Position numbers and translations under genes: made by a program. This document shows positions 7,029 through 52,760 of a DNA stretch of 64,000 nucleotides, in pieces. Where the stretch lies: positions 868,001-932,000 of the forward strand of contig CAKKNE010000001.1 in the NCBI GenBank assembly GCA_918797485.1. Direction: 5' to 3'. Positions within the stretch are counted from its first letter, which is position 1. Every line of letters starts with the position of its first letter. The notes under the pieces were generated by a model. The model ran no database searches. It saw only the letters and a list, made by a program, of their open reading frames with translations, and was not told the origin of the DNA. The DNA comes from Pelagomonas calceolata (Eukaryota).

Positions 7029-10000
7029 TTAGCCGGGCGCGACGGCACTACTACCGGCCCATCCCGTCCGCGGCCGCAGGCAGAACATCGCGAGGCAGAA
7101 CCCGGGCGCGACGACGGGCGCAAATAAAAACCTTGTAAGAAGGGTGAGCGACACCGGGGCGTAGTAGAAGCTCACCCAAAACATGTGCCAATAGTCCTTC
7201 TTGCCGCACTTCGTGAGGTCAAATTTTTTTTCCCTCATGTTCCCCGGCGGCCCGTCGATGCACTCGTAGATGGGGTTCTCCCGCTTCCCCGCGTACAACA
7301 ACCCGGTCAAGACAAACACCCACCAGAAGTTCCAGAGGCACAGCGGGAAGCACGCGAAGCGCGTGCAGCCGCAGCATGTCGCCTCGGAGAAGACCACCTT
7401 ATCAAGTTCCTTCTGCGCGTCGTCGTCGGCCTCGGCCTGGAGCATCGCGGCGACCTCGCGGCCGAGGCGCGACTGCGCCAGGCCGTCGCCGCCCCCGACG
7501 ATCCTCAAAAACACCTTCTCCATCGTCGCGCGCGCGAGCGAAAAGTCGATCACGCCGAGCCGCGCGCACGCGTCGTCGTCGAAGGCGCGGAACGCGAGCG
7601 CCGGCGTCCGCCGCGGGTCGACGCCCACGAGCTCGAGCGTCGCGACGTCCGCGTCCGCGGCGGCGACGTCGACGTCCGGCGACGAAAAGGCCTCGCGCGC
7701 GAACGTCACGAGGTCCGCGACGTGTTCGTCGTCCCGCGTTTTCAGGCGGCACGAGATCTCGTAGCCCGCCGCGTAGCGCTCCTTGAGGTCCTGCGGCGTC
7801 CCGATGCAGCGCATGGTGCCCTTGACCATGATGCCGATGCGGTCGCAGAGGAGGTCGGCCTCGCCCATCGAGTGCGTCGTCAGGACGACAGCGCGGCCCT
7901 TCATCGTCACCTTGATGAGGTCCCAGAGATTCCTTTGCGCTCCTGGATCCAGGCCCGACGACGGCTCGTCCAGCAACACCACCGAGGGGCCGCCGACCAG
8001 CGCCACCGCGACCGCCAGCTTGCGCTTCATGCCCCCCGACAGGCGGCCCGCCGCTTTGTCGGCGTGGTCGGACAGGCCGACGACGGCGAGCGCTTGCTCC
8101 GCGGCGTCGCGCGCGTCTCCTTCGATGTCGACGCCCCGCAGCCGCGCGAAGAGACAGAGATGGTCTCGACAGCTCAGGTGGTTCCAGAGGACGTTCTTCT
8201 GGTTGACGACCCCAAGCGCCTGAGCTGCCGACTCGAAGTCCTGTGTGGAAATCAAATTTCGGGCGCCCCACGCCATCGACGCGATATTTTCTCCGTAGCT
8301 GCGTCTGCTCGATGGCGTGAAAGTCAACCTAACTCACTGGTTGATTTCCACACAGCTCTTGACGGCCAGCACGCTCCTCCCGCCGACTTTGGCGTCCCCA
8401 GACGTCGGCTCGATGGATCGGCAGATCATCGAGACGGTCGTTGTCTTTCCGGCGCCGTTCGCGCCTAGTAAACCAAAGACCTGGCCCGTCGGGACGCCGA
8501 ACGCCGCGCACTGGACGGACTCGACGGCCGCACCGCCGAAGAACCGCGGCGGATAGATCTTGCGCAGCTCCGAGACGACGAGGCCGTCGCGGTCCGCCGA
8601 CTTGATGTCGCGCACGAGCGGCGGCGGGTACGGGTCGTCGCCCGGCGGCACGTTCCGCAGCAAGGCGACGGTGTCGCGCACGGCGGCGGAAAACCTCGTC
8701 CGCGGCGGCCGCGACGGCGGCGCTTCCTCCTCCGGCTCGTCTACCACAATCTGGAAGTCGTCTTCGTTCGTCGACAGGGCGTCGCCTGCGCTCGCGGCGT
8801 CGCCCGCGCCGGTGAGCGCCGCGACGCGCGCGCGCTCCGCGGCGACGTCGTCGGGCATCGCGGCCGCGCGCGCCTTGGAGACCCGCGTCTTGACCCAGGC
8901 GAGCGGGCGCAGGGCCCGCCGATCCTGAAAGATGACTATTCCTTCATAAAGCACGATGTGGAACAGGGCGAAGAGCGCGGCCGCCCAGCCGCTCGGTAAG
9001 GGCGGGTCCGCGGGCTGCCTCGATAAAGGTCCGGGTCCCGACGCCTCGAGGAAGCCCATGCGCTTCAGCTGCGGGTGGAAGGCCACCTTGCAGACCTGGA
9101 CCGCCAGGTTGCCGAACGGCGACGCCATCGACGCGAGCCACGCGGCTTTGCAGCTCAGGTCCTGGAGGAGCCAGCGGTTCTTCTGGACCGCGGCCGCCCA
9201 CCAGAGCGCCGCCAGCGCCCCCGGCGCGGCGAAGCCGTAGATTCCGACGACAAAGGGCGTGCCGCCGACCGCCACGAGCGGATGGTCGAAGGTCGTCGTC
9301 GCGAAGTGCGAGAAGCTCACGATCCCCGCGCTGCAGAGCGGCAGGAGAATCCACAGCCACGGCCAGCGCTCCATCCAGCGGCGCACGACGAATTTCGTCG
9401 CGTTCTTCCAGGCCCCGGCCCCGATGCTGTGGTCCCAGACGCTGCCGCAGTACCACTGCTTGAGGGTATCGTAGGACTCGGAGCTCCACATACTCTCCTC
9501 TTCCTCTTCAAAGCCCCCCGGGTACCGGTCGTGGAAGGCGCTCGCCATGGACGCGACGGTCGCGTCGTAGGGCCCGAGGTCGAGATCCCCCTTCCGAGCG
9601 GCCGCGTGGAGCTGCGCGTAGGTCGGCGCGCTGCTGCACAACCGTTTGCGGTACGCCATGCGCGTCGCCGCTAACATGAAGACGACGCAGACGGCACCGC
9701 CCACGAGTATCAGCGCATCGCCGAGCCAGTTTCCCAGCCAGTACGTGAAGGTGTCGAGGCCCGAGACCGCCAGCAGATTCCGCAGACCTCTGGCGCGCTC
9801 GCGGACGTAGGGCTCCACGATGAATCCGGCGGCGAGGACGTATCCGCCCAGCAGGACCCCCACGACGAGGGCGTTGTAGCCCTCCGCCCAGCCACTTTTG
9901 AAGCCTGTCGTCCTCTTCCTTCTGCCCATGTTTCCGCGCACGACCAGCGGCATCGCCGCCGACGCCACTTGGAGGAGCACCAGGGTTGTTCCATGTATCC

Positions 10001-13000
10001 CGGCGGAACAAAACGCGGAGGCGAAGACGGAGAGAAAAACTTCCACGAAGAGGCCAAAAAAGAATCCGGCGACGCCGCCGGCGGTCCGCGCCCGCGCGCG
10101 GCAGCCCGGCGGTTTACATCTCCGCAACGCCGCCTTGCACACTTGCCAGCCCACGCCCCACCCCGCACTCAGCCCCGCTATCATACCCACGATCGCACCA
10201 AAGACCGACGTTGGAACACCAAAATACGGCCGGAGCCCGGCCTCGAGGCCTAGGGCGATCGCCGTGGCCACCAGCGACGTCGATCCCACCGCCACGGCGT
10301 GCTCGAGAGGCCGCCACACTATCAGACCCGCGACGGCGCCTACGACACCGCCGGCGACCGCGCCCGGCGCCGACACCGAATATTTGAAATAGTAGTATCG
10401 CACGCCGCACTCCAGCGCCGCCAACAGAAGCACGGCCGCTGCTGTAGTGAAGGCGGCCGCGAGCCCCCAACCCAGACCGGGCCAGCCGTCCTTGCGCGCA
10501 GCCACGCCACAGCAAACGATAAACCCTGAGACCAAAGCCGCGGCGAGCACGGCGAAACGGGTTGGCACGGTGAAGGTCGTGTGGTCTTTGCTCGCGCGCG
10601 CCCGCGCCATCGCTTGTCTGAGCCCGCCGGGCAGCACGCGACAGCCGAAGACCAGGTCTGGGATCCACCTGAGGTCGTTTGCTATCTGCTGGAGCCGGAA
10701 CTGCGCCACGGCCACGACGAGCCGCGACGGCGGCACCGGCTCGCCCGGCCTCGCCGGCACCAAGGCCCCGCCGAGCAGCGTCTCCGCCTCCACGGGCGCC
10801 GCCGCGCCCTCGACCTTTTCGCCGACGGATATGAACACGTCCTCGAGCGACGTCGCCGTCACCGACAGGTCGACGAGGCCCAGACCGTCGGCCTTCTCCT
10901 CGAGGCCTTCGAAGAGCGCGACCATGCGCGCGCGGCCGACCGCCGCGGGCACCGTGTACGTCGTCGTCGCGTCGTCGGCGGCGTCCTCGAGGAGGGGGGC
11001 CTCGGCGTCCGCCCAGTTCCGCGACGCGGAGAAGCTCGCGCCCCGGGTCGCGTTCAGGAGGGGGCTCCGAAACGACGACGAGAAGCCCTTCGGCGTCGAC
11101 CCGAGGAGCGGGTTCGCGGCGTCCGTTTCGGTCGCCCGGCGGAGGTCCTCCGCGAGCTTCGAGGCCGCCGCGAGCTCGGCTTCGGGCACGTGCTGCGCAA
11201 AGACCGCTTTAAGTTCATCGCGCGCCGCGGCGGCCGTCGTCACCGCCACGTGGAGGCCGCCGCCGAGGTCGACGGCCGGCGCGGCCGCGGCGTCCGCTCG
11301 CTCGGCTTCGGCGAGCGCCTCGGCTATCGTTTCGGCGGCCCGCATGTCGCCGGCAGCCTCCGCCTCCGCTATTTTGGCGGCGGCCTCCGCCTCCCGCTTC
11401 GCTCTGCGTTCCGCCGCGGCCGCGTCGTCGGCCCCGCCGAAGTGCCGCTTCAGGAAAGCTAGAGTGCCGCAGCACTTCACGCTCCCGGCCGCCATGATCG
11501 CCACCCGGTCCGCCAACGCCTCGGCTTCCTCCATGTGGTGCGTCGTGAGGAGCACCGACCGGTCGACGCGGACGTCGCGCAGCAGGGTCCAGACCTCGCG
11601 CCGCGCCACGGGGTCCATTCCCGCCGTCGGCTCGTCGAGGACCACGAGCCTGGACCCGCCGGTCAGCGCCGCGGCCATCATGACCTTGCGCTTCTGGCCG
11701 CCCGAGAGCTTGAGCGGAAACCCCTCGGCCATTTCCGTGAGGCGGAAGAGCTCCAGCAGGCCCGTCGCCTCGTGCTCCGCTCTAGCCTCCTCGACGCCCT
11801 TGAGCCGCGAGTAGAAAATGAGGTGCTCCCGGAGCGTGAGGTGGGCGAAGAGCGCGTCGTGCTGCGGGCAGAAGCCGAGGAGCTGGCGGAGCCTATCCAA
11901 ACCATCCGCGTCGGCTAAGGGGCCGAGCGTGCGGATCCCGAAGAAACTTGCGCTGCCGCCGTCGGGCGCCATCGCTCCAGTCATCATCGACATGGTGGTC
12001 GTCTTGCCCGCTCCGTTGTGACCCAGCAGGCAGAAGATCTCCGAGTCGCGGATCGCGAACGTCGCGTCCGAGACGGCGACCTTCTTCCCGAAGACCTTCC
12101 GGAGGCCTCTTACCTGGACCGGCGCGTCGCTGTCTTTATCATGCTCGAACCACTCTTCGTGGTCCACGAGCGGCGCCTTCTCTTCGACCTCGTCCGGCGG
12201 CGGCGGTCGCCAGTACGCCTTCCTAATGCAAAAGAGCAGGTCCTTGCCCTTGCCCCGCGCCGCCGACGTGGAGACCTGGATCACGTACCACAGGACCGCC
12301 GCCCACAGCGCCACGGACACCATCAGCATGCAGTAGACGCCGGCCGTCCACGAGGACTCGGGCCGCCAGCCCCGATCCTCAGTCTTCTCGTACCAGAAGG
12401 GCCAGACGTCCTCGCACTTGAGATGCTCCTCGGCGCAGCGCGCCGGCATCAGCGACTGGCTGGCCAGATACTGCTCGAAGGCCTCGAGCCGCGGCCCTGG
12501 GGCCTCGTCCCAGCACTCTTTCCAGCACGCCCTGCACGGGTAGCGCTCCCCCACAAAGCCGTCGGCGACGAGCCGGCACCGCCAGCCCGCTCGCTTTCCC
12601 GTCGGGCTGAACGAGTCCACCAACAAATCGTAGGCAAACTGCGGCAGGAAAGCCGCGCTGGCGAAGTGGGCGCGCGGCCGCGCCCACAAGCGCCAGTTCG
12701 TTCCTTCCTCCTGGATCCCGCGCCAAGCCCACCTCCGGAGCGGGTTCCAAGCAAAGTAGAGCCCGTGCAGGGTCGCGTGCAACAGGGGCGGGAGCCCCGC
12801 CGCGGCGATTTGCGACCGAAGGAGGCACGTGACCACCACGAAGGTCTGGAGGGTGAGCGCCAGCAGAAAGAGCCAGTGGAGGGCGAAGAGCTCGAAGAAC
12901 GCGGCGACCTCGAAACTCTTGCCGGCGCGCCGGAAGAGGCCCGGCGCGGCGAACGCGGCGATCGCGACGGAGACGCCTCCACCGATGGCGACGCCCTCGA

Positions 13001-16000
13001 TCAAAAGCGATGCGAGCCAGTAGGCCGCGTCGGCGCCGCCCGCCGCGCGCGTCGCCTCGCGCGTGCCCGCGGCGACGTCCCCCACCAGCGCCGAGGCGAC
13101 CTCCTGGACCCAGGGCACGAAGAGATACTGGAACACGAAGAGCTCGAGGTCGCCGTGGTTCGTGTCGGAGGTCGTCCGCTCGCGGCTGGCCGCTCCGCCG
13201 CCGACGGGCGTCGGCGCGCCCGTCGCGCTCGCGACGGTGCTCTGCTTCTTTTTATTTCTTTCCTTGATGTCGTACAGGAGCCAAAGGATGCCGACGCCGA
13301 GGAGCGGCACGCTGACCTGCTTGACCAGCGCGCCGAGCGTGCGCTTCTTCACCGTCCACGCCTTGCGCGCGAGGAGCGCGGTGCGTTCCATGAGCGACGG
13401 CGGCTCGGCGGCGTGCTTCGGCGCGACGCCGCCGCCGTCCACGGGCACCGCCTCCGCGAGCGAGAAGAGCTGGCCCCGCCGGACGCCCGGCGGCACGCGT
13501 ACCTTGACGCCGTCCGGGCGGGCCACGATCGTGCCCGGCGGGCCCGGCGCCACGACCCAGGGGACCGTCTGCTCCGTCCCGTCCTCCGCGGTGTAGACGG
13601 CCGCGGGCGGCCGCTTGACCAGGCAGAAGCTGCAGGCGCGCGCGCAGCAGCAGAGGCGACGCCAGACGTAGCAGCAGCAGCAATAGTAGAGGCAGCGGCC
13701 GAGGCAGCGGCCGAGGCGGGCCGTCACCTTCTTCAGTCCCTTCCACGCGAGCGGCGCGGCGACGGACAGCTTTGCCAGAAGCGCGGCGACGGCCCGCTTC
13801 TTCCTGAGCGACGCGACGCCGGCCGAGAGCTTATCCAGGCACGGCGCGACGTGGCGTCTGAAAAGCGATGCGACGCCGGCCGAGAGCTTCTCCAGGCACG
13901 GCACGACGTAGCGCCTGAACCAGGGGCGCCGCTCGCGGAACTTCTCGTAGCGCGCGCGCGCCTCCTCGCGGAACTTCTCGTAGCGCGCGCGCGCCTCGCC
14001 CGGCTGACGGAGCAGCAGCCGACAGAACTCCAGGCCCGCGAAAAGCAGCGCGATAGGGCGCGTGACCAGCTCGAAGACCCAGCCGCCGCAGCAGACGAAG
14101 ACGCACCAGCGGGAAACGGCCCCGTCCTTTGCCTTCGCGACGACCCAGTTCCGGCACCGCTGCAGCCGCGCGTAGCCGCGGCACGACGGCTGCGAGACGC
14201 AGCACGCGAGGACGATGCCAAGGACCCAGATGCCGACGAGGGCCACGAAGGTCAGGCCCTGGCCCCACGTGACCCAGATGGGGCGGAAGAGGTGGACGCC
14301 GGTCGCCGGGGCGAAGCCGCAGACGTCCGGGATCTCGTCGCCGCCGCCCCGCGCGGGCCACGCCTTCACCGCCCGCCGGAGCCGCGCGAACGTCGCGGGG
14401 TCGTGGCCCAGCTCCGCGCAGGTCTTGCCGCAGACGTCGCGGCAGCCGCGGTGGAACTCGCGCGCCGCGGCCCGCGCGCACGCGTCCGCCGACGCGGCCG
14501 CCGGCGCGGCGTCGAGCCCGGCGAATTTGCGCGGCGCGCGCGTCGAGGCCCAGAAGTTCTCCCACGGGTGGTCCCACTCGGTCCTCCCGCGGGTGTTGTA
14601 GTCGGTCTTGTACAGCCACGCCTCGTCCCAGCGCTTCCACGCGCGGAGCTGCGCGTGGAAGAAGTCGCCGTCCTCGGTGACCACGCCGCAGGCCTTGATG
14701 CGCTGGCGCTCGCCCCGGCGCCGGTTCCGCGCCGAGGCCGGCCACGGCTTTGTATGACGGAGGTCGGGGCGCCACCAGTTGCGCGTGCAGGCGACCTCGT
14801 CGCCGAGCGCCGCCCAGAGCCGCGGGATGAGGTCCCACCAGCGCCACGAGTCCTCGCGGACGTAGTAGAGCGCGCCGGACGCCGGGTCGCACCGCAGGTC
14901 GTCGCAGGCGTAGGGCTCTCCCCTAAAGTCGCAGGGGCGGGCGCGGACGAGTTCCCCGTCGGCGGCGAAGACGCTCGGAGATGACCTTTCGTTCCACGAG
15001 CTGGTGTCCCAGTAGTTTCTCTCTTCCCAGGTGCGGCGGTCGAAGCTGCCGAAGTATTTGAGGAGGACGTCGCAGCGTCGGGGGCCGCTGCCGTGGAAGC
15101 ACGCGGCCGTCTTGGCGACGCACGACGCGTCGCCGGACGCGTTCCGGCAGCAGGTGCCGACGCCGGGGACGACGTCGACGCCCGCCGGCGTGCGGTCGTC
15201 GGCGCAGTAGCGGGCCTCGGGCGGCGACGTTCCCGCGGGTACGGCTCTTTCTTTACCATTATCGTCTATGTAAGTATGATACACGTACTTGCCGCGGCAG
15301 TCGTCCTCCTCGCCACCGACCTCGATCCAACTGTCGCCTGGCCAATAGTCACCGATTAGACCACTCCAGGCTCGAAACACCGAATTAACGGTGATTTCGA
15401 ACTTCTCTCGGTTCCGCTCAAGCCGGCCGGGCTTGAAATTGCGGCACGCGGCCCGGTCGCAGTCGGCGCGGGGATCCGGCGCAAAGCACGCCGCCGGCGC
15501 GTCCGCCCTCGCGCAGCAGGATTCCGCGCTGAACCAGTCCTCGAGGTCCTCGGCCACGGTGGACGTCCTCTCTCTCTTTCTCTCTCTCTTCGCCCGCGAC
15601 TTCTCCCTCTTGTGTGCAATCTGAAGAGGAAGGTAGGCCGTCGTCCGGTTCCTCCCGCCGGCGCAGGCCGGTCGGGCCCCCCAGTCTCTTTCAGCCCGCG
15701 GCCTCGAGGGTGCCATCTCGCAGCAGTCACGCCACTCCAGCGGGCGCCGCCCCGCGTTCGCGTGGGCCTCCCAGCCTGTGTGGAAATCAAAATTTTACGG
15801 CGCGTTCGCGCTGAATCGCCGCGTCGACCTCCACGCCATCGATGCGACGTCTGCTCGATGGCGTGGCGATGCCGGTCCCTCGCCGCTCGACGGAGCCAGG
15901 ACGGCCGCGTCATCGCCAAGAAATGACTTGGTGAAGAATTGTCGGTACACCCGACGCACTGGTTGATTTCCACACAGCGCCCAGCAGAAGCCTTCGGCGT

Positions 16001-17101
16001 CCACGTCCGCGGCCGTGACGTTCGTCGCGTCGCGGCAGCACGTGAACACGCAGGGCGCGTTGCCCGCGACGACCGCGTAGCCGTCCGCGCACGCGGCGGT
16101 CTCGTTCGGCCCTGCGCAGCAGGCGCCCGCGCCCGCTCCACTCGCGGCCTTGCGCACGCTGCACTCAAAGTCCGGCAGGAACTCGTCCCAGCCGCCGAGT
16201 TCCCGCGGCCCGGCGCCGCACCACTCGCGGCTTACGGCGCCCGCGGCGCGCAGGCACCTGCTCAGCCACCTGCTCGTGAATTCTCTATGTGCCCGTTCCT
16301 TTTCCTTTCTGTTTTGCCACGTTGCTTCAGGAAAGTCCTGTGGGGGCGCGGGCACGCCGACGCCGGCATTTCCCGAGCACGCGCCGTAGTCGTGGGGGTT
16401 GAAGCCAATAGTGCCAACACTGGCCCAGGCCCAGTCGGGCGGCGGCGCGCCCCAGCTGCAGCAGTCGCTATTGAAGCCGCCTCTGTCGTTATCGCCGCCG
16501 CCTCTGCTGCTGCAGTCGCTGTAGCCCACGGGGCACCACCCGTCGGGCTTGGCGCCGCCGGCGCCGTAGGCGAGCGCGCAGTCCGCGTCGACGCCCAGGT
16601 CGCACGCGCCGTCGCAGGCGCAGTCCGCGTCGCGGTCGCAGCAGCCCGCGCACTCGTAGTAGCCCGCGGGGCACCGGGGCGTGCGCCAGGCCTGTGTGGA
16701 CACCGACGAGTGAGTTTCGGCCGCGCGTCACCGGCGTGGAAGGGACCTCGAAGACTCGGACGACATGCGAGGCCCTTGAAGGCCTCGACCGCGCGCGCGT
16801 CGCTCAGGGCGGCGAGGTGCGCCGCGCGGTCGGGGAAGGCCGCCCGGAGGTGCAGGCGCACTGCCGTGGCATTCGTGGTCGGCGCCGTCGCGTGCTCGAA
16901 GGAGTCGGCGCCGCAGCGGCAGTCTGGACCAGGGTCGCAGCAGCTCGCGCAGGTGTAGTTGCCCGGCGCGCACACGCGCTCGGCTGCATAAATCGTGCCC
17001 CGTGACCGCACGCGGCACCGCGCGTTGTCGCACTCGAAGGGCGGCTCGGGCAGCACCGCCCGGGCGACCGCCACCGGCAGCCATCGTAGCAGCCGCCCCA
17101 T
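7029..17101 (-). CDS. Giant full-size ABCA-family transporter with Cys-rich N-terminal extension; predicted exons 17101-16784, 16691-15986, 15775-8364, 8240-7029
   Basis: Two NBDs are present (LLGHNGAGKTT/LSGGQKRK/LDEPTAGMDP and LLGANGAGKTT/LSGGMKRK/LDEPSSGLDP), plus two TM regions. Removing three Introner-type introns gives one continuous frame (VE|AWRT, GF|CWEAH, SVLA|DFESAAQ). Confidence 0.85.
8241..8363 (-). mobile_element. Introner (MITE-like intron), element 8241-8355; intron 8241-8363, GT-AG
   Basis: Perfect 15-bp TIRs CTGTGTGGAAATCAA (8241-8255) / TTGATTTCCACACAG (8341-8355). Internal IR CACGCCATCGA/TCGATGGCGTG. The donor GTCAAGAG lies exactly 8 nt outside the TIR, and splicing restores the ABCA frame. 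Confidence 0.9.
13810..13998 (-). repeat. Intragenic tandem duplications (57-bp and 33-bp periods) in the ABCA gene
   Basis: Encodes ARARYEKFRE twice and (F)RRxVxPCLxKLSAGVASL twice. Confidence 0.7.
15776..15985 (-). mobile_element. Introner, element 15776-15977 (202 bp); intron 210 nt, GC-AG
   Basis: Perfect 15-bp TIRs. 8-bp TSD ctcccagc (15768-15775) / cgcccagc (15978-15985), 7/8 identical. 12-bp internal IR at 15831-15842/15855-15866. Splicing restores the frame. Confidence 0.93.
16692..16783 (-). mobile_element. Degenerate Introner-derived intron (92 nt, GC-AG)
   Basis: The 3' end ...ACTCAC...GTGTCCACACAG resembles the family TIR. The GC donor at 16783 gives a phase-0 join, VE|AWRTPRC. 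The other TIR is not recognisable. Confidence 0.55.
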
Positions 17102-20329: not shown

Positions 20330-20754
20330 CTCGCTGACTTATGGGTAACAATATGCTGCCCCCCCGCGCAGATTGCAAGTTCGCGTTACTGAGGTCGCCT
20401 GGCCCCGCTCCGCTCCTTTCTTTGCTGCCCTCCCAGCGTGGAGGCCTCGCTGCGAGTAGCCAGCAATGCCTTCGAAGCCCACGAGGCCGCGGGTGGTATC
20501 GAACAAGAACGGCCCGAGGCAGCGGTCTCGCACACTTCCCTACTGCGGTCAAAGGAGTGGTACTTCGGTTTTCGTATCGCACGGGTATTTTTAAAAGCTG
20601 CCAACGAGGTTTTTTGCCTTGAACAGGGCGCACGCTTGCTCCCGCAGTGTACGCGATAGCTCCGCGCAGTAGACGCGATTGCTTTATCGATCCGCGCAAA
20701 AACCGCGCTCTGGGACACTGCGGACGCTCCACAATCAAACTCCACCGGTTGCAA

Positions 20755-22161
20755 ATGCAGCAGCCATCATTCGACAGTGCCGCGCGCAAGGCGCTGGAAG
20801 CCACCGGACTCCTGTCCGAGGAGGAGATCACGCTCATCATCGGCCGCCGCAAGCGCGCCGCGAGCCGAGCAGCGATCGCCGCATCCCTCGAAAACACTGC
20901 GCTGCTGCCGACGGCAGAGAAACCGGCGGAACGTGAGCTGACGGCCGTCGAGCGCAGCCTGCGGCCTCCGCCCTCGCCGGGCGTCGAGAAGCGGGCCGCC
21001 GTCGCCGAGGCCGAGGACCGCCTCAGCGACACGCTCGCGAAGATGGCCCTGGGGCCGTCGAACGCGCGGGCGCCCGCCGTGCTCGAGGTTGGAACGCCCG
21101 TGTCGTTCAAGCTCTCGGACGGCAGCGTGCGCCGCGGCGTCGTCGAGAAGGTCCATAATGATGGGGCGGCCTACACCTTGGTCGAGGACGGCACAGGCGT
21201 CCGGTGGCAGCACCACCCGGCGCGGTCCCTCAAGGCGCGGACGGGGGCGTCAAAATCGGTCGCGCCGCCGCAACCGCCGACCGCCGACGTCGATGCGGTG
21301 CTGTCATTCCTGACGCCGCCGCAGCGCCAACGGTTCGTCGACAACGAAGTGACGCTCGAATGCCTCGCTCTCTTAAACGAAGAAGATCTTGACGATCTCT
21401 TGGAGGGCGACGCCGAGGCCAAGGCGAGCTTCCGGCTGCGCTACCCGCCTCCCGCGACCGACGAAGCGCGCGCGCCGGTACGCTTCGACGTATCCGACGA
21501 AGCATCTCCGCCGCCCGCGCCGCCGCCCGCGCCGCCCACGCCCCTGCCGCCGGAGGCGCCGCTCCCGACAAAAATCCCGGAGCGGCCGCTCCTGCGCGTG
21601 GTCGTCGACGCCAACATTATATTGGACGCCGGAGACCTCAGCCCGGCGTACTTGTTGCAGGACTGCGGTGCGGTGAGGATCATCCTGCCCCTGCGTGTGG
21701 CCAAGGAGCTGGACGGCCTAAAGGGCTCCTCTGATGACGACGTCGCGCGGCGTGCGCGGCGGGCGAACGCGTTCTTCAGCGACCCTTGGATTCGACGGCA
21801 GCCGTGGCTCGAGCTCGAGCAGGGCGCCGGAGAAGCCGCGAACCGGACCGCCGACGAGGAAATTCTGGACACTGCGCTCGCCGCGCAGAAGGAGGGCACG
21901 ACCGTCCTCTGCACGCGCGATACTGTGTGGAAAGCAACCGATGGCGTGGGGACGCCTACTCGAACTCAGATGTAATTTCCGCGCAGGCGCGACAAGAACC
22001 TACGACTACGCGCGGCGCACGCCGGCGTGGAAGCGCTGGATCTCGTGGAAACGCGGTCCAAGGCCCACGCCCGGGACGTGAGCTGGCGGCGCGCCTACGG
22101 CCACCTCCTCCCCAGTAGCTACGACGACGCCGCGCGGCGGGAGTATCTGCGGAACTACTAG
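20755..22161 (+). CDS. PIN-domain ribonuclease-like protein with SH3/Tudor-like and SAM-like modules; exons 20755-21914, 21987-22161
   Basis: PIN motifs VVVDANI, VAKELDGLK and ADEEILD. After splicing it continues LCT|RDKNLRLRA, the canonical TxDxNL motif. Stop TAG at 22159-22161. Confidence 0.8.
21915..21986 (+). mobile_element. Introner, element 21923-21986; intron 72 nt, GC-AG
   Basis: Left TIR CTGTGTGGAAAGCAA, right end TAATTTCCGCGCAG. TSD gcgcgata (21915-21922) / gcgcgaca (21987-21994), 7/8. Internal GATGGCGTGGGG is shared with other copies. The element contains an in-frame TAA that splicing removes. Confidence 0.9.
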
Positions 22162-22181
22162 TAATCGTGTTTGTCTCTTAC

Positions 22182-43147: not shown

Positions 43148-43174
43148 CCTAGCGGCCAGTAAGACACTAGAAAG
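43148..43174 (+). promoter_or_regulatory. Recurrent intergenic motif
   Basis: cctagcggccagtaagacactagaaag, ~150 bp upstream of ATG 43326. Confidence 0.6.
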
Positions 43175-43325
43175 CACTTTGCGGCTGCTGCTGCTCGGCC
43201 GCAGGAGTGCGCAATTGTGCTTGCAAGTTCAAGCCACATCGTGCATAGCTCATTACAAACACCTGCAGCCCGTGCAGCCAAATTTCGAGCACGCCTACGC
43301 CCCGCAGCACTCGCAGAGCAAGCCC

Positions 43326-44324: not shown

Positions 44325-44335
44325 TAAGTGTATGT

Positions 44336-45184: not shown

Positions 45185-45248
45185 CTCAACTACTTGCGAT
45201 CAACACGACCTCAAGGCGCAAAAATCTGGCGCTCGAGATTTGCATTTA

Positions 45249-45274
45249 GCTAGCGGCAGCAAGACACTAGCAAG
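45249..45274 (+). promoter_or_regulatory. Recurrent intergenic motif
   Basis: gctagcggcagcaagacactagcaag, 65 bp upstream of ATG 45184(-). Confidence 0.55.
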
Positions 45275-45379
45275 CGTGGAAACAAGCGTGCTAGTCCTAG
45301 CACCGTAACCATACGATGGAAACAAGCGTGCCCCAAGACACGAGCAGCAGCATCGGACGACCTCCTCAAAAACGAAAAC

Positions 45380-46390: not shown

Positions 46391-46525
46391 TTTTGTAAAC
46401 TTGTAGCGTTTCGAAGCCAGTACTTCTTGCAAGATGAGTCTACCACAGAGCCACGTTTTGGCAGCGCTGCGTGTTCAGTTATGCCTCGTTTTGGGCCGCT
46501 GCGCGCAACAGCCGCGCTGGGTCTA

Positions 46526-46551
46526 GCTAGCGGTGTGTAAGACACTAGCAA
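46526..46551 (+). promoter_or_regulatory. Recurrent intergenic motif
   Basis: gctagcggtgtgtaagacactagcaa, ~135 bp upstream of ATG 46390(-). Confidence 0.6.
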
Positions 46552-47395
46552 ACGGAATACGGCATGCAGCTGTTCGAGTATCCTTCGGTTCGCTACTGGT
46601 CCAAAGAGATCAATGGGACATGTACTGGGGGCCCAAAATTTTTTTTTTTTTAATTCGCGAAATTGACGACGCCGCCATGGCTGGCGCGTCGGTGGAATCC
46701 TGTCGATTCGTGGTCCTGAGGTCTCCCCGGCGTCGCCTAGGGTCGGAACTAGACATGGGTAGTCGCCTACGCCGCGTGCGCGGGCGCTTCGATCAGTGGA
46801 TGCAAATCAAGACAGGTCCCCAGCAGTGCGCGGACAACTGCCATGATCCCCAAAAGTTTTCGATCCAGAGCTCTCTGGGAGCCCCGAGAATCGGCGCATG
46901 CGGTCTAGGCGACCACCCGACCTCAGACCTATCCCAGAGGGTGTCCGCGAGCCGATCTGCCCCCGAAAAAGTAACTCATTTGGACCCGATGGCGCCCCGT
47001 TCCCGAGGCCCAGTCGCGAGTCGTCACCGTTGCACAAACTAAGAGCAGGCCGCCCGCCACCAACGCGGCGAGCTGAGTCCTCTGGCGATCGGAGACTCGC
47101 GGCTCCGGACGCGTTACGTCTCGGAGAGGTTCCAGTGGTTCCATGGATGGATGGAGAGCTCTGTGTTAATATTGGGGCCGTGCGCGCGCTAGACTAGCAA
47201 GCTACGATGACGACGCGATGATTCGTCTAACCTCGCGCTTCAAAACTGGAAACCCCGAGGCTGTTTTCGCGCAGAACGAAGTGCACGCGCTCACATCACA
47301 TAGGGCTAGAAGGCTGTGAGGCTCTAGGAAGCGTAACAATGCAAGAGCAAAGAATTAGAATGGTCCACAGAGCAAGTTGTTACAGATGAGTACAT

Positions 47396-49573
47396 TTACG
47401 ACGCAAGGCTCGCGGACGAGTCGGCCGCGCGCAACTGCCGGCGGACGAGGTTCGAGTACTCGGCGCAGTCCTGCAGCAGTGCGTCATGGGTGCCCGAGCC
47501 GATCACGCGGCCGCCCTGGACCAGCGCGATCAGGTCCGCGTTGACGACCGTCGACAGCCGGTGCGCGACGGATATCGACGTGCGGCCGACGCAAAGTTTA
47601 TCGATGGCGTCCTGCACGAGGGCCTCGGACTCCGCGTCCAATGCGGAAGTCGCCTCGTCGAAGAGCAGCAGCCGCGGCGCCGCCAGTAACGCGCGGGCGA
47701 TGGCGACGCGCTGCGTCTGGCCGCCGCTCAGCCGGACGCCACGCTCGCCGACTGCTGTTTCAAATCCGTCGGGGAACGCCGTCGCGAAGTCGTAGGCGTG
47801 CGCCGCCTTGGCCGCGGCCTCGACGGCCGCGTCGTCGGTGCGGAGGCCGCGCGCGCGAGAAGCATATGCAATATTGTCGCGTATGCTCCCCGAAAAGAGC
47901 GCCGGCTGCTGGGCGACGAGGGCCATCTTCGTCCTTAAAACGGTCGGTTCCACTGCTCGTATATCAACACCGTCGAAGAGAATCCTGCCAGACCCGACGT
48001 CGTAGAAGCGTTCGAGCAAATGAAGCAACGTCGTCTTCCCGCCGCCCGACGGCCCCACCAGTGCCTGTCAGTGAGTTTTATCCACAAGGTCGCGTCGATG
48101 GCGTGGGGCGCCCGAAATATGATTTCCACACAGTCCTGCGCCGCCCGCGACTTCGCCGGTATGCGCAGCGTCAGGCCGTCGAGCACGCGGAGGTCGGGCC
48201 GCGACGCGTAGGAAAAGACGACATCCTCGAAGGCGCAGCCCGCCGCGTCGCCTCGCGCGAGCCGCAGCTCCGTCGCGCGGTCCGCGTCGCTCTTGGAGGA
48301 CCAATCGTTGGGTATGGCCGGCTCGCGGTCGATCACCGCGAAGATTTCTACCGACGCGCCGACGGCCTCGACGACGGAGGCGCCCGTCTGCGCGAGGACC
48401 GACAGCGACGCGGTGATCGTGAGCAGCAGCATGACGAACGCGACGAGGTCGCCCGTCGTCATCTGGCCGCGCACCACTAACAGCCCTCCGTAGTACCAGA
48501 CGCCCAGCACCGACGCGTAGCCCAGAGCCGCCGTCGTCGTGATGAACGCCGCCTGGACTCCTGCCTGCCGCAGCCCGAGCGCCAGGCTCGAGTCCTTCGC
48601 CGGCCGCTCGGCCGCGTCGGGGTCCCCGACGGCGTGGGCGTAGCGGCCGACCTCGAAGCCCTCCGCGCCGAAGGACCGCACGACCCGCTGGTTCGCGAGG
48701 CCCTCCTGCGCGACGGCGCCCGCGCGCGCCAGCGCCGCCTGCGACTCCTTGGCGAGCCGCTTCACGACGCGCATGGCGAGGAACGTCGCGCCGATCAGGA
48801 ACGGCACCACCGCCGTCGCGAGGCAGGCCAGGCGCCACGACGTCAGGAACAGGAGCGCGAAGGACACGAGCGCGGAGATCGCCGACCGGAGCGCGAGGGA
48901 TACCGTTTCCGTGGCCGCCGCCTGGAGCTTCTGCGTGTCGGACGCGAGGCGGCTCAGGAGATCGCCCGTCTCCCGGGCGTCGAACCAGGCCGTCTCCTGC
49001 GCGAGCATCCGCCCAAACAGCAGGACGCGCAGCCGCGCGACGACCTTCGCGCCTGTGCGCAAATCAACCAGTTAGTCGAGCGCGCGTGTCCTTTCTCGAC
49101 GAGAACGCGGCCGGGCTGGCTCCATCGAGCGGAGAGGCACCGACACCTCCATGCCGTCGAGCAGGTGTCGCGTCGATGGCGTGGAGGCCATGATCTATGC
49201 ACAGCTTCGCGCCCGCCGAGTTAAACACGTAGGCGCGAACCGCCGTGAAGAACAGCGACACGCCGACCACCAGCGCGAGCTCGGCGCAGGCCGCCGAGTA
49301 GCGCCGGAGCCGCGCGTCGCGCGACCCGCTCGTGTCCGAAGTGGCATCGACCATGCGCCCGAAGAGGAGGGGCATGACTGCCTGGCCGAGCACCGCGAGC
49401 ACGAGGCAGAGCGTCGCCGCAGCCATCGCGGGCCACTCGGGCCGAGACTGCCGCAGGATGCGGCGCACGCCCGCGGCGCGCTTCGTTTGTGTTGTTTCGC
49501 TCGGGGGTTCGAGGAGTGGTGCCGCGAGGTCTCCACTGGTCCCGTGCAGGGGGGAAGGTGTGGCGCCCGGCAT
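47396..49573 (-). CDS. ABCB half-transporter (ABCB10/TAP-like); exons 49573-49213, 49052-48142, 48064-47396
   Basis: TMD motif QETAWFD...TGDLLSRL. NBD motifs ALVGPSGGGKTT, LSGGQTQRVAIARA, DEATSALD and AHRLST. Two Introner introns restore the frame (SAG|AKVV, KSRA|ALVG). Confidence 0.92.
48065..48141 (-). mobile_element. Introner, element 48065-48133; intron 77 nt, GC-AG
   Basis: TIR TGATTTCCACACAG (48120-48133). The interior matches the reverse complement of the 8241 copy (CGCGTCGATGGCGTGGGGCGCCCGAAAT). TSD GCGCAGGA/GCACTGGT, 5/8. Donor lies 8 nt outside the TIR. Confidence 0.85.
49053..49212 (-). mobile_element. Introner, element 49053-49204; intron 160 nt, GC-AG
   Basis: TIRs CTGTGCGCAAATCA / TGATCTATGCACAG. 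Perfect 8-bp TSD cttcgcgc (49045-49052 and 49205-49212). The interior is homologous to the 15776 copy in the opposite orientation. Confidence 0.92.
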
Positions 49574-49748
49574 TGTTGCGCTGCAGTCTGCTGCAGCACT
49601 GCTGGCAAAGTGCTATAACTTAGTTTGGTGTGGACGTGTTCGACGGACAGGTTCTGCACTGCAGCACTGGTGACAAAATGCCGATACGTGACGGGTGCCA
49701 GCCCTATGGCCCTATGCTCGGCTCCGAGCGCACACGCCCGCATAATCG

Positions 49749-49767
49749 CCTAGATGAGAGACACTAG
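49749..49767 (+). promoter_or_regulatory. Variant of the recurrent intergenic motif
   Basis: cctagatgagagacactag between divergent genes. Confidence 0.4.
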
Positions 49768-51515
49768 ACTCGACCAAAAACCGTCGTTAACCGATCTATC
49801 CTTCGTGCACGCCGAACCGAAGATTCTTGACGGCGTTGAGGCCTCCCCAAAGCTGAGACGCATTGCTTGCCTGGTGTTTGCTGGCTTGGTAAGGGCAGGC
49901 GAGGTATTACGACCGCCGACCGATAGCCGAAGGTAGGCCCACGCCGTCGCGTTCATAATCTACTCACGAAGCCACACGCGCGAAATTTCCGCCCCGCGAT
50001 CGCTCGATGGCGCTCGAAAAGAGCGGGGAAAGGCATGGTGGATTTTGCGCACAGGCCGGCGCCCTCCGCGGTGCCGACGGGCCTGCCGACGCCGCAGCCG
50101 ACGCCCGGACCGACGCCCCAGCCTACGCCTGGGCCATCGCCGGAGCCGACGGTTGCGCCGACCTCCAGTGAGCCGACGCCGGAGCCGACGCCGTCGCCGA
50201 CGCCTGGGCCTTCTCCGGAGCCCACGATCGCGCCGACTTCCAGTGAGCCGACGCCCGAGCCCACGCCGTCGCCGACGCCTGGGCCTTCTCCGGAGCCCAC
50301 GATCGCGCCGACCTCCTCGGAGCCGACGCCGATGCCGACGCCGTCGCCTACGCCCGCGCCATCGCCCGGACCGACGCCCCAGCCTACGCCTGGGCCATCG
50401 CCCGGACCGACGCCAGTGCCAGTGCGTGAATCCAACCGCCGCCGACTCGCCGCGCCTTCTCACGAAGCATAACGCCATCGACGCGACGCGAGCTCGACGA
50501 CGTGGCGTTGCGGTCTGGTACCGCTCGCTGCGGTCTGGTACCGCTCGCTGCGGTCTGGAACCGCTCGCACCGGCCAGCACGGCGGCGTTCTCGCCGCGAG
50601 GGGACTTGGTGCAGAATTCTCGGGCGCCCGGTCGACTCACCGATTGATCCGCGCACAGGCCGCAGCCGACGCCGCAGCCGACGCCTGGTCCGACGCCGGA
50701 GCCCTCGCCGGGCCCGACGCCCGCGCCGACGTACGTGCCAGTGCATAAATCACACCGCCGCGAATCTTCGACTCACCGATTGATCTACGCACAGGCCTCT
50801 GCCGACGCCTGGTCCGACTCCGGAGCCCTCGCCGGGGCCCACGCCGATGCCTACGCCGCAGCCCAGTCCTGGGCCGACGCCGCAGCCCTCGCCGGGCCCG
50901 ACGCCGGCTCCGACGCCGGCTCCGACGCCGCTGCCGACGCCGGGTCCTACGCCTGGGCCATCGCCGGGCCCCACGCCGATGCCCACGCCGCAGCCCAGTC
51001 CTGGGCCGACGCCGCAGCCCTCGCCGGGCCCGACGCCGGCTCCGACGCCGGCTCCGACGCCGCTGCCGACGCCGGGCCCTACGCCTGGGCCATCGCCGGG
51101 CCCCACGCCGATGCCGACGCCGCAGCCCAGTCCTGGGCCGACGCCGCAGCCCTCGCCGGGCCCGACGCCGGCTCCGACGCCGGCTCCGACGCCGGCTCCG
51201 ACGCCGATGCCGTGGGGCGTTCCGATGCCATCGCATCCGTCCGCGCGACGCTGTTCCAGACGGCGCATATATGTGCGCCGGCGCGACGGACGTGAAGGCA
51301 ATGGGATGTCCACGCAGGCCGGGGCGTTCCGATGCCATCGCATCCGTCCGCGCGACGCTGTTCCAGACGGCGCATGTATGTGCGCCGGCGCGACGGACGT
51401 GAAGGCAGTGGGACACAAGACCCTCCACCTTACTCGGAGGACCAAGACCAGCCTGGACTGCACAAAGTTAGGGCGAAACGCAAGACCGGCCGCACCGACG
51501 GCGGGCCTCTCCTAG
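49754..51515 (+). CDS. Pro/Thr-rich (PT-repeat) mucin/extensin-like protein; introns 49933-50054, 50412-50658, 50731-50794; start and 3' end uncertain
   Basis: Three phase-2 introns join PTP/PSP repeat exons into one frame (SR|RPAPS, GP|TPQP, AP|TPLP). A hydrophobic stretch [13 protein letters not shown] lies upstream. Confidence 0.5.
49933..50054 (+). mobile_element. Degenerate Introner-like intron (122 nt, GT-AG)
   Basis: The 3' end GATTTTGCGCACAG resembles the family TIR. Internal GCTCGATGGCG is shared with the family. Confidence 0.5.
50412..50658 (+). mobile_element. Diverged Introner, element 50420-50658; intron 247 nt, GC-AG; contains 3x 20-bp tandem repeat (50510-50567)
   Basis: The interior aligns by eye with the 15776 copy (ACGCCATCGA..., GACTTGGTG.AGAATT.TCGG). 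Ends TTGATCCGCGCACAG. TSD GCCAGTGC/GCCGCAGC, 5/8. Confidence 0.75.
50731..50794 (+). mobile_element. Short diverged Introner, element 50739-50794; intron 64 nt, GT-AG
   Basis: CAGTGCATAAATCA...TTGATCTACGCACAG. It shares TCGACTCACCGATTGATC with the 50420 copy. Donor GTACGTGC lies 8 nt outside the TIR. Confidence 0.75.
50820..51205 (+). repeat. Coding tandem repeat, ~132-bp unit x3
   Basis: The unit [44 protein letters not shown] is repeated nearly identically. Confidence 0.85.
51214..51413 (+). repeat. 93-bp direct repeat x2 (period 107 bp) with internal hairpin
   Basis: 51214-51306 and 51321-51413 differ at 2 positions. Each contains the near-palindrome CGGCGCAT(A/G)TATGTGCGCCG. Confidence 0.85.
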
Positions 51516-51634
51516 AAGCCCGATGCGCACCGTCGGACGCCGAAGAAGACCCCAAGAGGCCGGGTGAAGAAGAGTAGCCTGGGAAAGAGGCCGCCCCCTG
51601 CGTGAGTAAAGACTCCCCAAAAAAACTTCAGCAT

Positions 51635-52006
51635 CTAGTGTCCGGACTCCTTACCCAGGAGTCGCCGGACCCGTCCGTCCGCGAGCGATCCTGCGGCGAA
51701 TGCGGCGGCCGACGCGGCGAGCGTGTTCCGCGCGGGCGAGTCGAGCACGCGGAGGAGCGCGTGGGCGACGCACGCCGCGGCGGCCGCGCCGAGCAGCGCC
51801 AGGACGACGAGCGGCGGCGGCGCGGCCGCGAGCGCGGCGGGCCGGGCGCGCACGGGCCGCGCCGGCGCCGCCGCCGGCGCGGGGACGCGCGCAGCGGCGG
51901 GCGCGGCCGCGGGCGGCGGGGCGCCGCCGATCGCCGCGATCGCCTGCACCTCCGCCGGCGCGAGGCCGCCGCCGATGGGCGCCATCGTCGCGTCCGCTCG
52001 GATCAT
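51635..52006 (-). CDS. Small Ala/Pro-rich hydrophobic hypothetical protein
   Basis: 123-aa ORF with the hydrophobic segment LVVLALLGAAAAACVAHALL. Weak support. Confidence 0.4.
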   Translation of the reverse strand: MIRADATMAPIGGGLAPAEVQAIAAIGGAPPPAAAPAAARVPAPAAAPARPVRARPAALAAAPPPLVVLALLGAAAAACVAHALLRVLDSPARNTLAASAAAFAAGSLADGRVRRLLGKESGH

Positions 52007-52296
52007 CTTCGCTCGTGGTCACGTTTAGCGTGCTTGCAGCGGTCACGACTGATCGATGCTTCGATGGCGCGTGGAGCAGATGAGTGCTATGTATTTGTGC
52101 TGGGTGAACAACTGGTACTGAATGCGCAAGTTGTGGAGCAGCTGAGTGCTATGTACTGCTGATACTGCTACTGATCGCGCGTCGCGCTGTGATTGCGATG
52201 GAAGGCTGCAGTAGATTTGCGCACTTTTCACATATAACTCGCACTGTCACGCAAAGACGCACGACGGCCGGGCCGCGATTAATTTTTGGCAGCTTG

Positions 52297-52319
52297 CCTA
52301 GCGCCTGTAAGACACTAGC
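52297..52319 (+). promoter_or_regulatory. Recurrent intergenic motif
   Basis: cctagcgcctgtaagacactagc. Confidence 0.55.
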
Positions 52320-52370
52320 CCCAGTATTTAGGTGTCTGATGGAACCGTGGACCTATCCGGAGCGCGCCCC

Positions 52371-52760
52371 TCAGAGCTGCTTCCCCGCCTTGAGGACCTT
52401 GTGCGCGACGGCGTCAACGAGTCCGACGGTCGTGAACGTTCCCCCGACGATCGCGCAGATGCTCGTCACGAAGTCGTACCAGCGCTTGCCTGTCGTGCGC
52501 ACGGCGACGGCCATGGGGCTCAGGTCGTAGGAGAACTTCGCCTCGGGCACGTCGAGCTCGTGGTAGGCCATGGTCTGCGTCTGGACGAGCGTCTGGTAGC
52601 CGACGGCCGTCGACGCGTCCGCGCCTGCGTGAAAATCAAAATTTTACGTGGCGTTCACGCCATCGATGCGGCGCTTGCTCGACACACGGATTGACTTCCA
52701 CACAGGTCCGCGCTCAAGGACGAGAGGAAGGAGCCGACATCAAAATGCGTGCTGACGACC
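52371..52760 (-). pseudogene. 5'-truncated fragment of an ERGIC/Erv41-46 (COPII vesicle) family gene, containing an Introner
   Basis: Spliced frame VVSTHFDVGSFLSSL|SADAST...VPEAKFSYDLSPMAV...WYDFVTSICAIVGGTFTTVGLVD...GKQL. No upstream exon is visible before the neighbouring gene. Confidence 0.65.
52625..52713 (-). mobile_element. Introner, element 52625-52705; intron 89 nt, GC-AG
   Basis: TIRs CTGCGTGAAAATCAA / TTGACTTCCACACAG. Perfect TSD gtccgcgc (52617-52624, 52706-52713). It shares AATCAAAATTTTACG and CACGCCATCGATGCG with the 15776 copy. Confidence 0.92.

What the first reader, a model, noticed from the sequence alone, without database searches (positions are those of the whole stretch)
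8241..52713. An intron-generating DNA transposon family (Introner) accounts for nearly all introns in the window
Seen in sequence: about 10 related insertions (8241, 15776, 16692, 21923, 48065, 49053, 49933, 50420, 50739, 52625) interrupt five genes. They share TIRs (CTGTGTGGAAATCAA/TTGATTTCCACACAG) and, in most copies, all or part of an internal CACGCCATCGA/TCGATGGCGTG hairpin. They are flanked by 8-bp TSDs (perfect at 49053 and 52625, 7/8 at 15776 and 21923). In every clear case the AG acceptor is the end of the TIR and the GC/GT donor is the first base of the upstream TSD copy, exactly 8 nt outside the other TIR. Splicing therefore removes the element plus one TSD copy and restores the frame without a scar. 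Established: this matches the Introner mechanism described for the pelagophyte Aureococcus. Inference: 8-bp TSDs fit a hAT-like transposase encoded elsewhere. This particular TIR family may be uncharacterised.
Basis: partly seen in the sequence, partly recalled or inferred. Interest (0 to 1): 0.9.

Follow-up and report, generated by a model that had tools for sequence, protein, structure and literature searches.

The report
Intron-making mini-transposons in a marine alga
Ten short related repeats interrupt five genes of what is likely a pelagophyte alga; RNA reads show two of them spliced out together with one 8-base flank, most of the rest are predicted to be, and they are likely non-autonomous transposons of an intron-making kind already described in these algae.

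Summary
The 15-nt TIR occurs 11 times (0.5 expected). RNA reads splice two copies exactly as predicted (8240/8364: 389 reads; 21914/21987: 55 reads; one sample). Four more cuts are colinear with relatives' proteins; two restore a 12-nt repeat register. In 97 metagenome copies, 62 have a 7-8/8 8-bp TSD and 95 have GT/GC exactly 8 nt outside an end, in both orientations. Filled and empty alleles segregate among wild records. This is the Aureococcus-type introner mechanism, and TIR-bearing introners are already reported in Pelagomonas calceolata, the likely host. Corrections: copy 8241 has no TSD; 16692 and 49933 are one-ended and unverified; at least two spliced introns lack family similarity; hAT is untested (no transposase found, no palindromic target preference). 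Not found in print: Aureococcus-cluster records carry the same TIR, with an unrelated interior, at the same codon of the same ABC-transporter gene as copy 49053, likely a parallel gain. The scan held no earlier report of it.

The parts
8241..8363 (-). E1: element 8241-8355 (subfamily B, internally deleted, perfect 15-nt TIRs) plus 8 nt = 123-nt GT-AG intron in an ABCA-like gene; flanks match only 2/8
   Evidence: Split reads 8240/8364 in 4 of 4 runs: 101, 111, 71, 106
15776..15985 (-). E2: full-length subfamily A element 15776-15977 (202 nt, 91% to the reference) plus 8 nt = predicted 210-nt GC-AG intron; TSD 7/8
   Evidence: cut is colinear with relatives' proteins; junction not among the shown RNA rows, sense depth only about 1-6 nearby
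16692..16891 (-). E3: one decayed end supplying a predicted AG acceptor at 16692; donor unresolved (GC at 16768, 77 nt, flank 6/8; or GC at 16891, 200 nt, which matches relatives' proteins better)
   Evidence: no RNA junction shown
21915..21986 (+). E4: element 21923-21986 plus 8 nt = 72-nt GC-AG intron in a PIN-domain gene; TSD 7/8
   Evidence: Split reads 21914/21987: 15, 21, 17, 2
48065..48141 (-). E5: element 48065-48133 (subfamily B, acceptor-side TIR partly deleted) plus 8 nt = predicted 77-nt GC-AG intron in an ABCB-type gene; TSD 5/8
   Evidence: Gap-free with 14 of 14 relatives; transcript contig piece starts at 48140 as the cut predicts (X5 record 15)
49053..49212 (-). E6: element 49053-49204 (subfamily A) plus 8 nt = predicted 160-nt GC-AG intron in the same ABCB gene; TSD 8/8; same codon, phase and orientation as a subfamily C copy in Aureococcus-cluster records
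   Evidence: contig piece starts at 49205 (X15 record 5)
49933..50054 (+). E7: decayed copy with only the acceptor-side end; predicted 122-nt GT-AG intron in a Pro/Thr-repeat gene; donor not verified
50412..50658 (+). E8: element 50420-50658 (subfamily A, left end reads CAGTG) plus 8 nt = predicted 247-nt GC-AG intron; TSD 5/8
   Evidence: Only the 8-nt cut restores the repeat register: 27/36 against at most 16/36 for 12 other offsets; one wild contig reads through unspliced (X15 record 6)
50731..50794 (+). E9: 56-nt remnant 50739-50794 (left end reads CAGTG) plus 8 nt = predicted 64-nt GT-AG intron; TSD 4/8
   Evidence: 24/36 against at most 17/36; same unspliced contig
52625..52713 (-). E10: element 52625-52705 (subfamily A, deleted) plus 8 nt = predicted 89-nt GC-AG intron in a 5'-truncated PDI-C/ERGIC gene fragment; TSD 8/8; filled in 1 and uninterrupted in 20 of 21 near-identical records
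7029..17101 (-). Host gene 1: ABCA-like transporter with Cys-rich N-terminus (E1-E3); 3109 stop-free codons after removing E1 and E2
20623..22163 (+). Host gene 2: PIN-domain protein (E4); end approximate
47396..49573 (-). Host gene 3: ABCB-type half transporter, 646 aa after removing E5 and E6
49754..51515 (+). Host gene 4: predicted Pro/Thr tetrapeptide-repeat protein, 442 aa after removing E7-E9
52371..52759 (-). Host gene 5: C-terminal fragment of a PDI-C/ERGIC (PF07970) gene; its upstream part is not in the window
52441..52448 (-). Empty target: a single GT-starting 8-mer at the place where 2 of 20 near-identical records carry a subfamily A copy
   Evidence: the filled state is read from peptide read-through, not DNA

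Best explanation
These repeats are likely non-autonomous DNA transposons (introners) of a pelagophyte alga: they carry 15-nt inverted ends and mostly an 8-base flanking duplication, two copies are spliced out of the RNA together with one flank, and most of the rest are predicted to be. Mechanism, step by step. (1, inferred) A transposase encoded elsewhere inserts a 203-nt element with an 8-nt staggered cut, duplicating 8 bases. (2, shown in sequence) Both ends finish in ACAG when read outward, so whichever way the element lands in a gene its downstream end offers an AG acceptor. (3, shown statistically) The donor is the first two bases of the upstream duplicate: all 43 perfect duplications begin with GT or GC at one end. 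(4, inferred) This is selection, not targeting: insertions without such a donor would break the gene and are purged; the far end of the duplication is background. (5, shown for 2 copies by reads, for 4 by relatives' proteins, for 2 by repeat register) Splicing removes element plus upstream duplicate, leaving the original coding sequence. (6, inferred) Copies then decay by internal deletion and drift into short ordinary-looking introns while the acceptor AG is kept. (7, inferred from peptides) Insertion is recent enough that sites are filled in some wild alleles and empty in others.
For: TIR excess 11 vs 0.5. Split reads at the exact predicted junctions, on the predicted strands: 389 and 55 reads. 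Reads from other loci pile up at the TIR ends with discordant flanks (169-480 per end per run), and about 2100 metagenome stretches are estimated to hold one 21-nt end (121 seen in 4 of 64 parts). Of 97 closed copies 43 have a perfect and 62 a 7-8/8 8-bp duplication (shuffled pairs: mean 1.05, max 5); no other length from 2 to 12 comes near; GT/GC at offset 8 in 95 of 97 against 12-39 at other offsets; 38 one way, 37 the other, 20 either. The second end keeps AG in 37 of 37 copies where it is the acceptor and 30 of 36 where it is not (Fisher p 0.011). ABCB model gap-free with 14 of 14 relatives at 88-90% identity, some on contigs of 18-20 kb. E10 site: 1 filled, 20 uninterrupted of 21; at least 7 of those 20 carry unspliced element peptide elsewhere in the same ORF, so they are probably genomic empty alleles.
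Against: No transposase or long autonomous copy was found, and no own genome was held. E1 has perfect TIRs but no duplication (2/8). E3 and E7 have one end and no verified donor. E2, E5-E10 junctions were not among the shown raw-read rows. One wild contig with no differences reads through E8 and E9 unspliced. Roughly 46 reads cover the inside of E1 against 389 spliced, so retention is not zero. All raw reads are from one sample. Empty alleles are inferred from protein records, not DNA. The AG-retention test is biased upward for both classes because the end finder required AG at ends with 3-4 mismatches.
Confidence: 0.92

Rival explanations
1. The decayed copies E3, E7, E8 and E9 are transposon remnants that are poorly spliced or spliced at other sites, so their host genes are disrupted or make other proteins.
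For: No split reads shown for them; a 534-nt wild contig reads through E8 and E9 with no difference; E3 and E7 lack one end and have several candidate donors; antisense RNA far exceeds sense RNA around E2-E3.
Against: Only the 8-nt cut restores the repeat register at E8 and E9, and both offer GC/GT there; E3 needs an intron of 3n+2 length to join two halves that relatives have in one ORF; the read-through contig may be DNA or pre-mRNA.
Confidence: 0.15
2. The family spreads as RNA, by reverse splicing of excised introns, and the TIR and flank matches are by-products.
For: Elements are found almost only as spliceable introns (95 of 97 with a donor); the TIRs fold the strand into a stable hairpin (z -5.2); no transposase was found.
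Against: The conserved unit is not the intron: the first 8 intronic bases differ at every site and match the downstream exon, and the element sits in both orientations about equally (38 vs 37), which reverse splicing does not give.
Confidence: 0.04
3. The mobilising enzyme is a hAT transposase, as opposed to another 8-bp-duplicating superfamily such as P, Merlin or Mutator (superfamily features recalled).
For: Strict 8-bp duplication and short TIRs; two old window copies start CAGTG, which fits the recalled hAT terminal pattern.
Against: The usual terminus is CTGTG, not the recalled YAGNG; no palindromic target preference (both ends GT/GC in 6 of 43, background 0.177, p 0.69; A at position 7 in 9 of 34 GT-starting sites); no transposase domain in 41 ORFs of 4 loci with an unpaired end; the readable part of the P. 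calceolata annotation names one Tc1-like protein and no PF05699 (file cut).
Confidence: 0.45

Closest known systems
Aureococcus anophagefferens introner elements (Huff, Zilberman and Roy 2016; not held; known here from recall and from passages of 10.1101/2020.10.14.339549)
   Same: One splice site carried in the element, the other recruited from the TSD; 8-nt cut; introns formed in either orientation (passage). Aureococcus-cluster proteins carry read-through of the same TIR.
   Different: Different host (ABCB 67-68% identical to Aureococcus). Window copies belong to interiors A and B; the Aureococcus-cluster copy has interior C, with no BLAST similarity to A or B. I could not compare with the published TIR sequence.
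Pelagomonas calceolata introner elements (Guerin et al. 2022, PMC9481584; passages and Supplementary Note 3 read)
   Same: 956 putative IEs, intron length peak near 210 bp, GT and GC donors, AG acceptor, conserved TIR; full-length copies here are 203 + 8 = 211 nt. Probably the same elements.
   Different: The passages seen give no TSD, no subfamilies, no orientation or polymorphism analysis; the logo figure and one supplementary file could not be read. The host identity is my inference.
Pelagomonas and Aureococcus MAG introner families (Gozashti et al. 2022, PMC9860276; passages and supplement rows)
   Same: TIR/TSD families of about 200 nt with GT/GC donors in Aureococcus MAGs; P. calceolata scored as introner-bearing.
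   Different: TSD and TIR are '?' for the 4 Pelagomonas family rows shown; the paper reports no homology between introners of different genera, whereas the 21-nt end here is shared by interiors A, B and C.
Polarella glacialis ILE classes 6, 8, 10 (10.1101/2020.10.14.339549, passages)
   Same: 8-nt TSD supplying the donor, either orientation.
   Different: Dinoflagellate; GA donors allowed; no sequence relation tested.

Membership tests
Introner, Aureococcus type | Dispersed family of similar short introns | tested here: met
   10 related places in 64 kb; 121 metagenome stretches seen, about 2100 estimated; own genome not held
Introner, Aureococcus type | Terminal inverted repeats | tested here: met
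   15/15 in E1, E2; 8-12/15 in six other two-ended copies; second end found in 97 of 122 matches
Introner, Aureococcus type | Site-specific 8-bp TSD | tested here: met
   62 of 97 at 7-8/8 against 1.05 in shuffled pairs; 4 of 8 two-ended window copies at 7-8/8
Introner, Aureococcus type | Acceptor carried in the TIR, donor co-opted from the TSD | tested here: met
   95 of 97 and 8 of 8; split reads for E1, E4
Introner, Aureococcus type | Works in either orientation | tested here: met
   38 vs 37 copies, 20 ambiguous, 2 neither
Introner, Aureococcus type | Scarless splicing | tested here: met
   No indel against relatives at E2, E5, E6, E10; register at E8, E9; E3, E7 unresolved
Introner, Aureococcus type | Empty orthologous site with one TSD copy | tested here: inconclusive
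   Met at peptide level (E10: 20 uninterrupted, 1 filled; reverse case 2 filled of 20 where the window has one 8-mer); allele DNA not available
Introner, Aureococcus type | Insertion in nucleosome linkers (recalled; also passage) | not testable with these tools
   No chromatin data
hAT superfamily MITE | 8-bp TSD and short TIRs | tested here: met
   shared with other superfamilies (recalled)
hAT superfamily MITE | Terminal pattern YAGNG (recalled) | tested here: not met
   Usual end is CTGTG; only E8 and E9 start CAGTG
hAT superfamily MITE | Autonomous partner with hAT transposase and matching ends | tested here: inconclusive
   None in the sampled loci; sample is 4 of 64 parts of short contigs; own genome not held
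hAT superfamily MITE | Palindromic nTnnnnAn target preference of Hermes-like members (recalled; not universal) | tested here: not met
   6 of 43 both ends, p 0.69; 9 of 34 A at position 7 against 0.17 background

The most novel reading that the evidence does not exclude
One transposase system with a single shared end sequence has driven intron invasion in at least two pelagophyte genera, mobilising three interiors that all measure 203 nt, and it hits the same nucleotides repeatedly: the ABCB gene was invaded independently at the identical base and orientation in the window organism (interior A) and in Aureococcus (interior C), each with its own 8-base duplication, while closer relatives are empty. 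Shared intron positions between these genera would then be hot-spot parallel gains, and the filled/empty alleles in wild populations would let intron birth be watched as it happens.
Probability: 0.5. Interest if true: 0.55.

Novelty: already known. Interest (0 to 1): 0.33.

Why it matters
Introners are the clearest known route to mass intron gain, but this mechanism is already described for pelagophytes, so the window adds confirmation more than surprise. What it adds is a handle: an exact end sequence shared across genera with which to look for the still unidentified transposase; segregating filled/empty alleles in an abundant ocean alga; and one apparent same-base parallel gain, which bears on how far shared intron positions can be read as ancestral (parallel gains and hot spots are already proposed for Daphnia and Micromonas, PMC4540971 passages).

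Tried and rejected
No own genome, so no genome-wide count or transposase search. Huff et al. 2016 not held. The first read lay (low thresholds) was swamped by reads of other copies: junctions for E5-E10 were not among the 15 shown rows. A 1483-nt apparent long copy (L051) is two separate short copies in an ankyrin gene; it and L047 (end misplaced) were dropped from then on, but are in the 97. 41 ORFs from 4 loci with an unpaired end hold no transposase domain; the other ORFs listed were not scanned. Viral contigs: 0 matches to the 21-nt end, 1 chance match to the other end. Prokaryote genomes: 1 match at a contig end, likely a stray algal contig. No metagenome locus was orthologous to a window copy, and joined-flank queries found no empty site among the loci. 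A Hermes-like target preference was tested and not seen. My first idea that 52760 is another acceptor was dropped: relatives continue as coding there, so the gene looks truncated. Text search for two 13-nt TIR pieces gave one unrelated paper; 'Pelagomonas calceolata + transposable elements + hAT + intron' gave none. The scan's earlier findings held nothing relevant.
Full report
Observation. The ten places are real members or remnants of one family. The 15-nt TIR is found 11 times at up to 3 mismatches, against a mean of 0.5 (max 2) in 30 Markov simulations of the window. Eight copies have two ends: E1 8241-8355, E2 15776-15977, E4 21923-21986, E5 48065-48133, E6 49053-49204, E8 50420-50658, E9 50739-50794, E10 52625-52705; their 8-base flanks match 2, 7, 7, 5, 8, 5, 4 and 8 of 8. 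E3 (16692) and E7 (49933-50054) keep one end only. In 8 of 8 two-ended copies GT or GC lies 8 nt outside the upstream end on the host's sense strand and the downstream end gives AG. Hosts are an ABCA-like gene (E1-E3), a PIN-domain gene (E4), an ABCB-type gene (E5, E6), a Pro/Thr-repeat gene (E7-E9) and a PDI-C/ERGIC fragment (E10).

Splicing. Four polyA raw-read runs of one sample, laid on 3001-23000, show the E1 junction 8240/8364 (101, 111, 71, 106 reads, minus strand) and the E4 junction 21914/21987 (15, 21, 17, 2 reads, plus strand), both exactly element plus 8 nt. About 46 sense reads cover a position inside E1, so splicing there is roughly 90%, a rough figure because reads of other copies count too. 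E2 and E3 were not among the shown rows (31 hidden); sense depth there is about 1-6 while antisense RNA is 5-138 deep. The lay on 34001-54000 was crowded by reads of other copies (70 rows hidden); contig pieces end at 48140, 49205 and 52624, the places the cuts at E5, E6 and E10 predict, but one wild contig reads through E8 and E9 unspliced. Protein evidence fills in. Removing E5 and E6 gives 646 aa, gap-free at both junctions with 14 of 14 relatives at 88-90% identity. The E2 cut is colinear with relatives of its Cys-rich domain, 21 stored proteins reading the same across it. The E10 cut matches records 97-99% identical. At E8 and E9 only the 8-nt cut of 13 offsets restores the 12-nt repeat register (27/36 and 24/36 against at most 16 and 17). 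E3 needs a 3n+2 intron; relatives favour a donor at 16891 over 16768. E7's donor is unverified.

The family beyond the window. No own genome is held. A 21-nt end matched 121 metagenome stretches in 4 of 64 parts, about 2100 estimated in all. Of 122 matches 97 could be closed by a second end. Among these, 43 have a perfect and 62 a 7-8/8 duplication of 8 bp (shuffled pairs mean 1.05, max 5 in 1000), and no other length from 2 to 12 stands out. GT/GC lies at offset 8 in 95 of 97, against 12-39 at other offsets; 38 copies point one way, 37 the other, 20 could be either. The search pattern fixes one end, so this sample favours young copies. All 43 perfect duplications start with GT/GC at one end, but both ends do in only 6 (background 0.177, p 0.69), so the donor reflects filtering after insertion, not a symmetric target preference. 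The free end keeps AG in 37 of 37 copies as acceptor and 30 of 36 on the donor side (p 0.011; the end finder favoured AG in both classes). Fourteen of 97 copies are exactly 203 nt and nearly all others are shorter. After dropping L051 and L047, 94 copies over 60 nt fall into interiors A (65), B (21), C (4) and 4 unassigned; A and B share only the hairpin motif, C shares no interior similarity, yet each has full-length 203-nt members (9, 2 and 3). Window copies are A or B. C copies sit in DNA of 73-84% GC, A and B in 64-65%.

Filled and empty alleles. Among 22 records of the E10 host examined (of more than 80 in those clusters), 21 cover the E10 site: 1 (P0174) reads into the same deleted element, 20 are uninterrupted, and at least 7 of those 20 carry unspliced element peptide elsewhere in the ORF, so they are probably genomic and empty. 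Conversely 2 of 20 carry an A copy at a site where the window has a single GT-starting 8-mer, 52441-52448. This is peptide-level evidence; partly spliced transcripts could mimic some of it.

An unexpected link. In the cluster that holds NCBI-named Aureococcus anophagefferens ABCB proteins, P0028 and P0030 run into the TIR and 12 residues matching interior C right after the residues GQK, and P0022 begins with the other TIR end followed by GQK again. That places a C copy at the same codon, phase and orientation as E6, with its own duplication (GQK on both sides, where the window has GAK on both sides), while the 14 closer relatives are unbroken. With 398 usable GT/GC sites in this CDS and two window copies, a match by chance is of the order of 1 in 200 for this gene, though I noticed it after the fact and orthology was not tested by a tree. 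Independent insertion at a hot spot is the likeliest reading; an ancestral intron whose interior was replaced would need both flank copies to change together in each lineage.

Host. The ABCB protein is 67-68% identical to Aureococcus, GC is 65%, and full copies give 211-nt introns. I infer a pelagophyte, likely Pelagomonas calceolata or a close relative; no tool named it.

Claims that did not hold fully. 'Nearly all introns': two RNA-proven introns, 6030-6103 (145 reads) and 35376-35633 (110 reads), have no BLAST similarity to the references, though the second has CAGTGCATA 8 nt after its donor like E9 and may be an old member. Eight of 10 single-exon ORFs looked up are on record letter for letter, so the window is intron-poor and 'most introns' is fair. 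'hAT': 8-bp duplications fit, but no transposase was found, the usual end is CTGTG, and no target palindrome is seen; hAT features are recalled, one search was seen as a listing only.

Literature. Huff et al. 2016 is not held and is recalled; passages of 10.1101/2020.10.14.339549 attribute to A. anophagefferens the pattern of one site in the element, one from the TSD, either orientation. PMC9481584 (passages, Supplementary Note 3) reports 956 putative IEs in P. calceolata with GT/GC donors, AG acceptor, conserved TIR and a 210-bp peak; its logo figure and one file were unreadable and another was cut. PMC9860276 (passages, supplement rows; file cut) leaves TSD and TIR as '?' for the 4 Pelagomonas family rows shown and found no homology across genera. 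PMC11282704 and PMC12130899 (passages) do not mention these hosts by the terms searched. PMC4540971 (passages) already proposes parallel gains and hot spots for introners. The TIR sequence, the three 203-nt interiors and the same-base coincidence were not found in searches, but the key paper could not be read and may show the TIR.

Verdict. A real, RNA-verified introner family working by a published mechanism, probably the very elements already counted in P. calceolata: already known, interest 0.33. The cross-genus TIR and the likely parallel gain are the parts worth following.

Noticed in passing
window 3049, 17283, 27521, 31954, 35714, 37476, 39320, 43160, 45260, 46538, 52308, 52917, 54751, 58428, 60759, 62900: A recurring motif (CTAGC...GTAAGACACTAG) at 16 places, mostly between genes; the one at 35714 lies between divergent RNA ends at 35663 and 35742-35759. 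Possibly a promoter element or a tiny repeat.
   Followed up: no
window 13673-17674: Plus-strand polyA RNA (up to 138 deep) far exceeds sense RNA (about 1-9) over the 5' part of the minus-strand ABCA-like gene, with defined ends near 14332-14347 and 15166.
   Followed up: no
window 52371-52759: The E10 host is only the C-terminal part of a PDI-C/ERGIC gene; relatives continue upstream but that part is not in the window.
   Followed up: partly
window 8233-8363: E1 has perfect TIRs but 2/8 flanks; several metagenome copies (L019, L119, L049) show the same pattern. Unexplained: TIRs may be homogenised between copies or under selection.
   Followed up: partly
window 35376-35633: 258-nt 5'-UTR intron with CAGTGCATA exactly 8 nt after the donor, like E9's left end; flank 3/8; possibly an old member.
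   Followed up: partly
window 51200-51420: A tandem duplication of about 107 nt separated by a TIR-like acceptor at 51317, with a weak match to interior B (E 0.002); perhaps an eleventh decayed copy.
   Followed up: partly
P0022, P0028, P0030 against window 49053-49212: Aureococcus-cluster ABCB records carry an interior C copy at the same base and orientation as E6.
   Followed up: partly
L122:2653-2673: A prokaryote genome bin holds a 64%-GC contig ending in this element's end, likely a stray algal contig.
   Followed up: no
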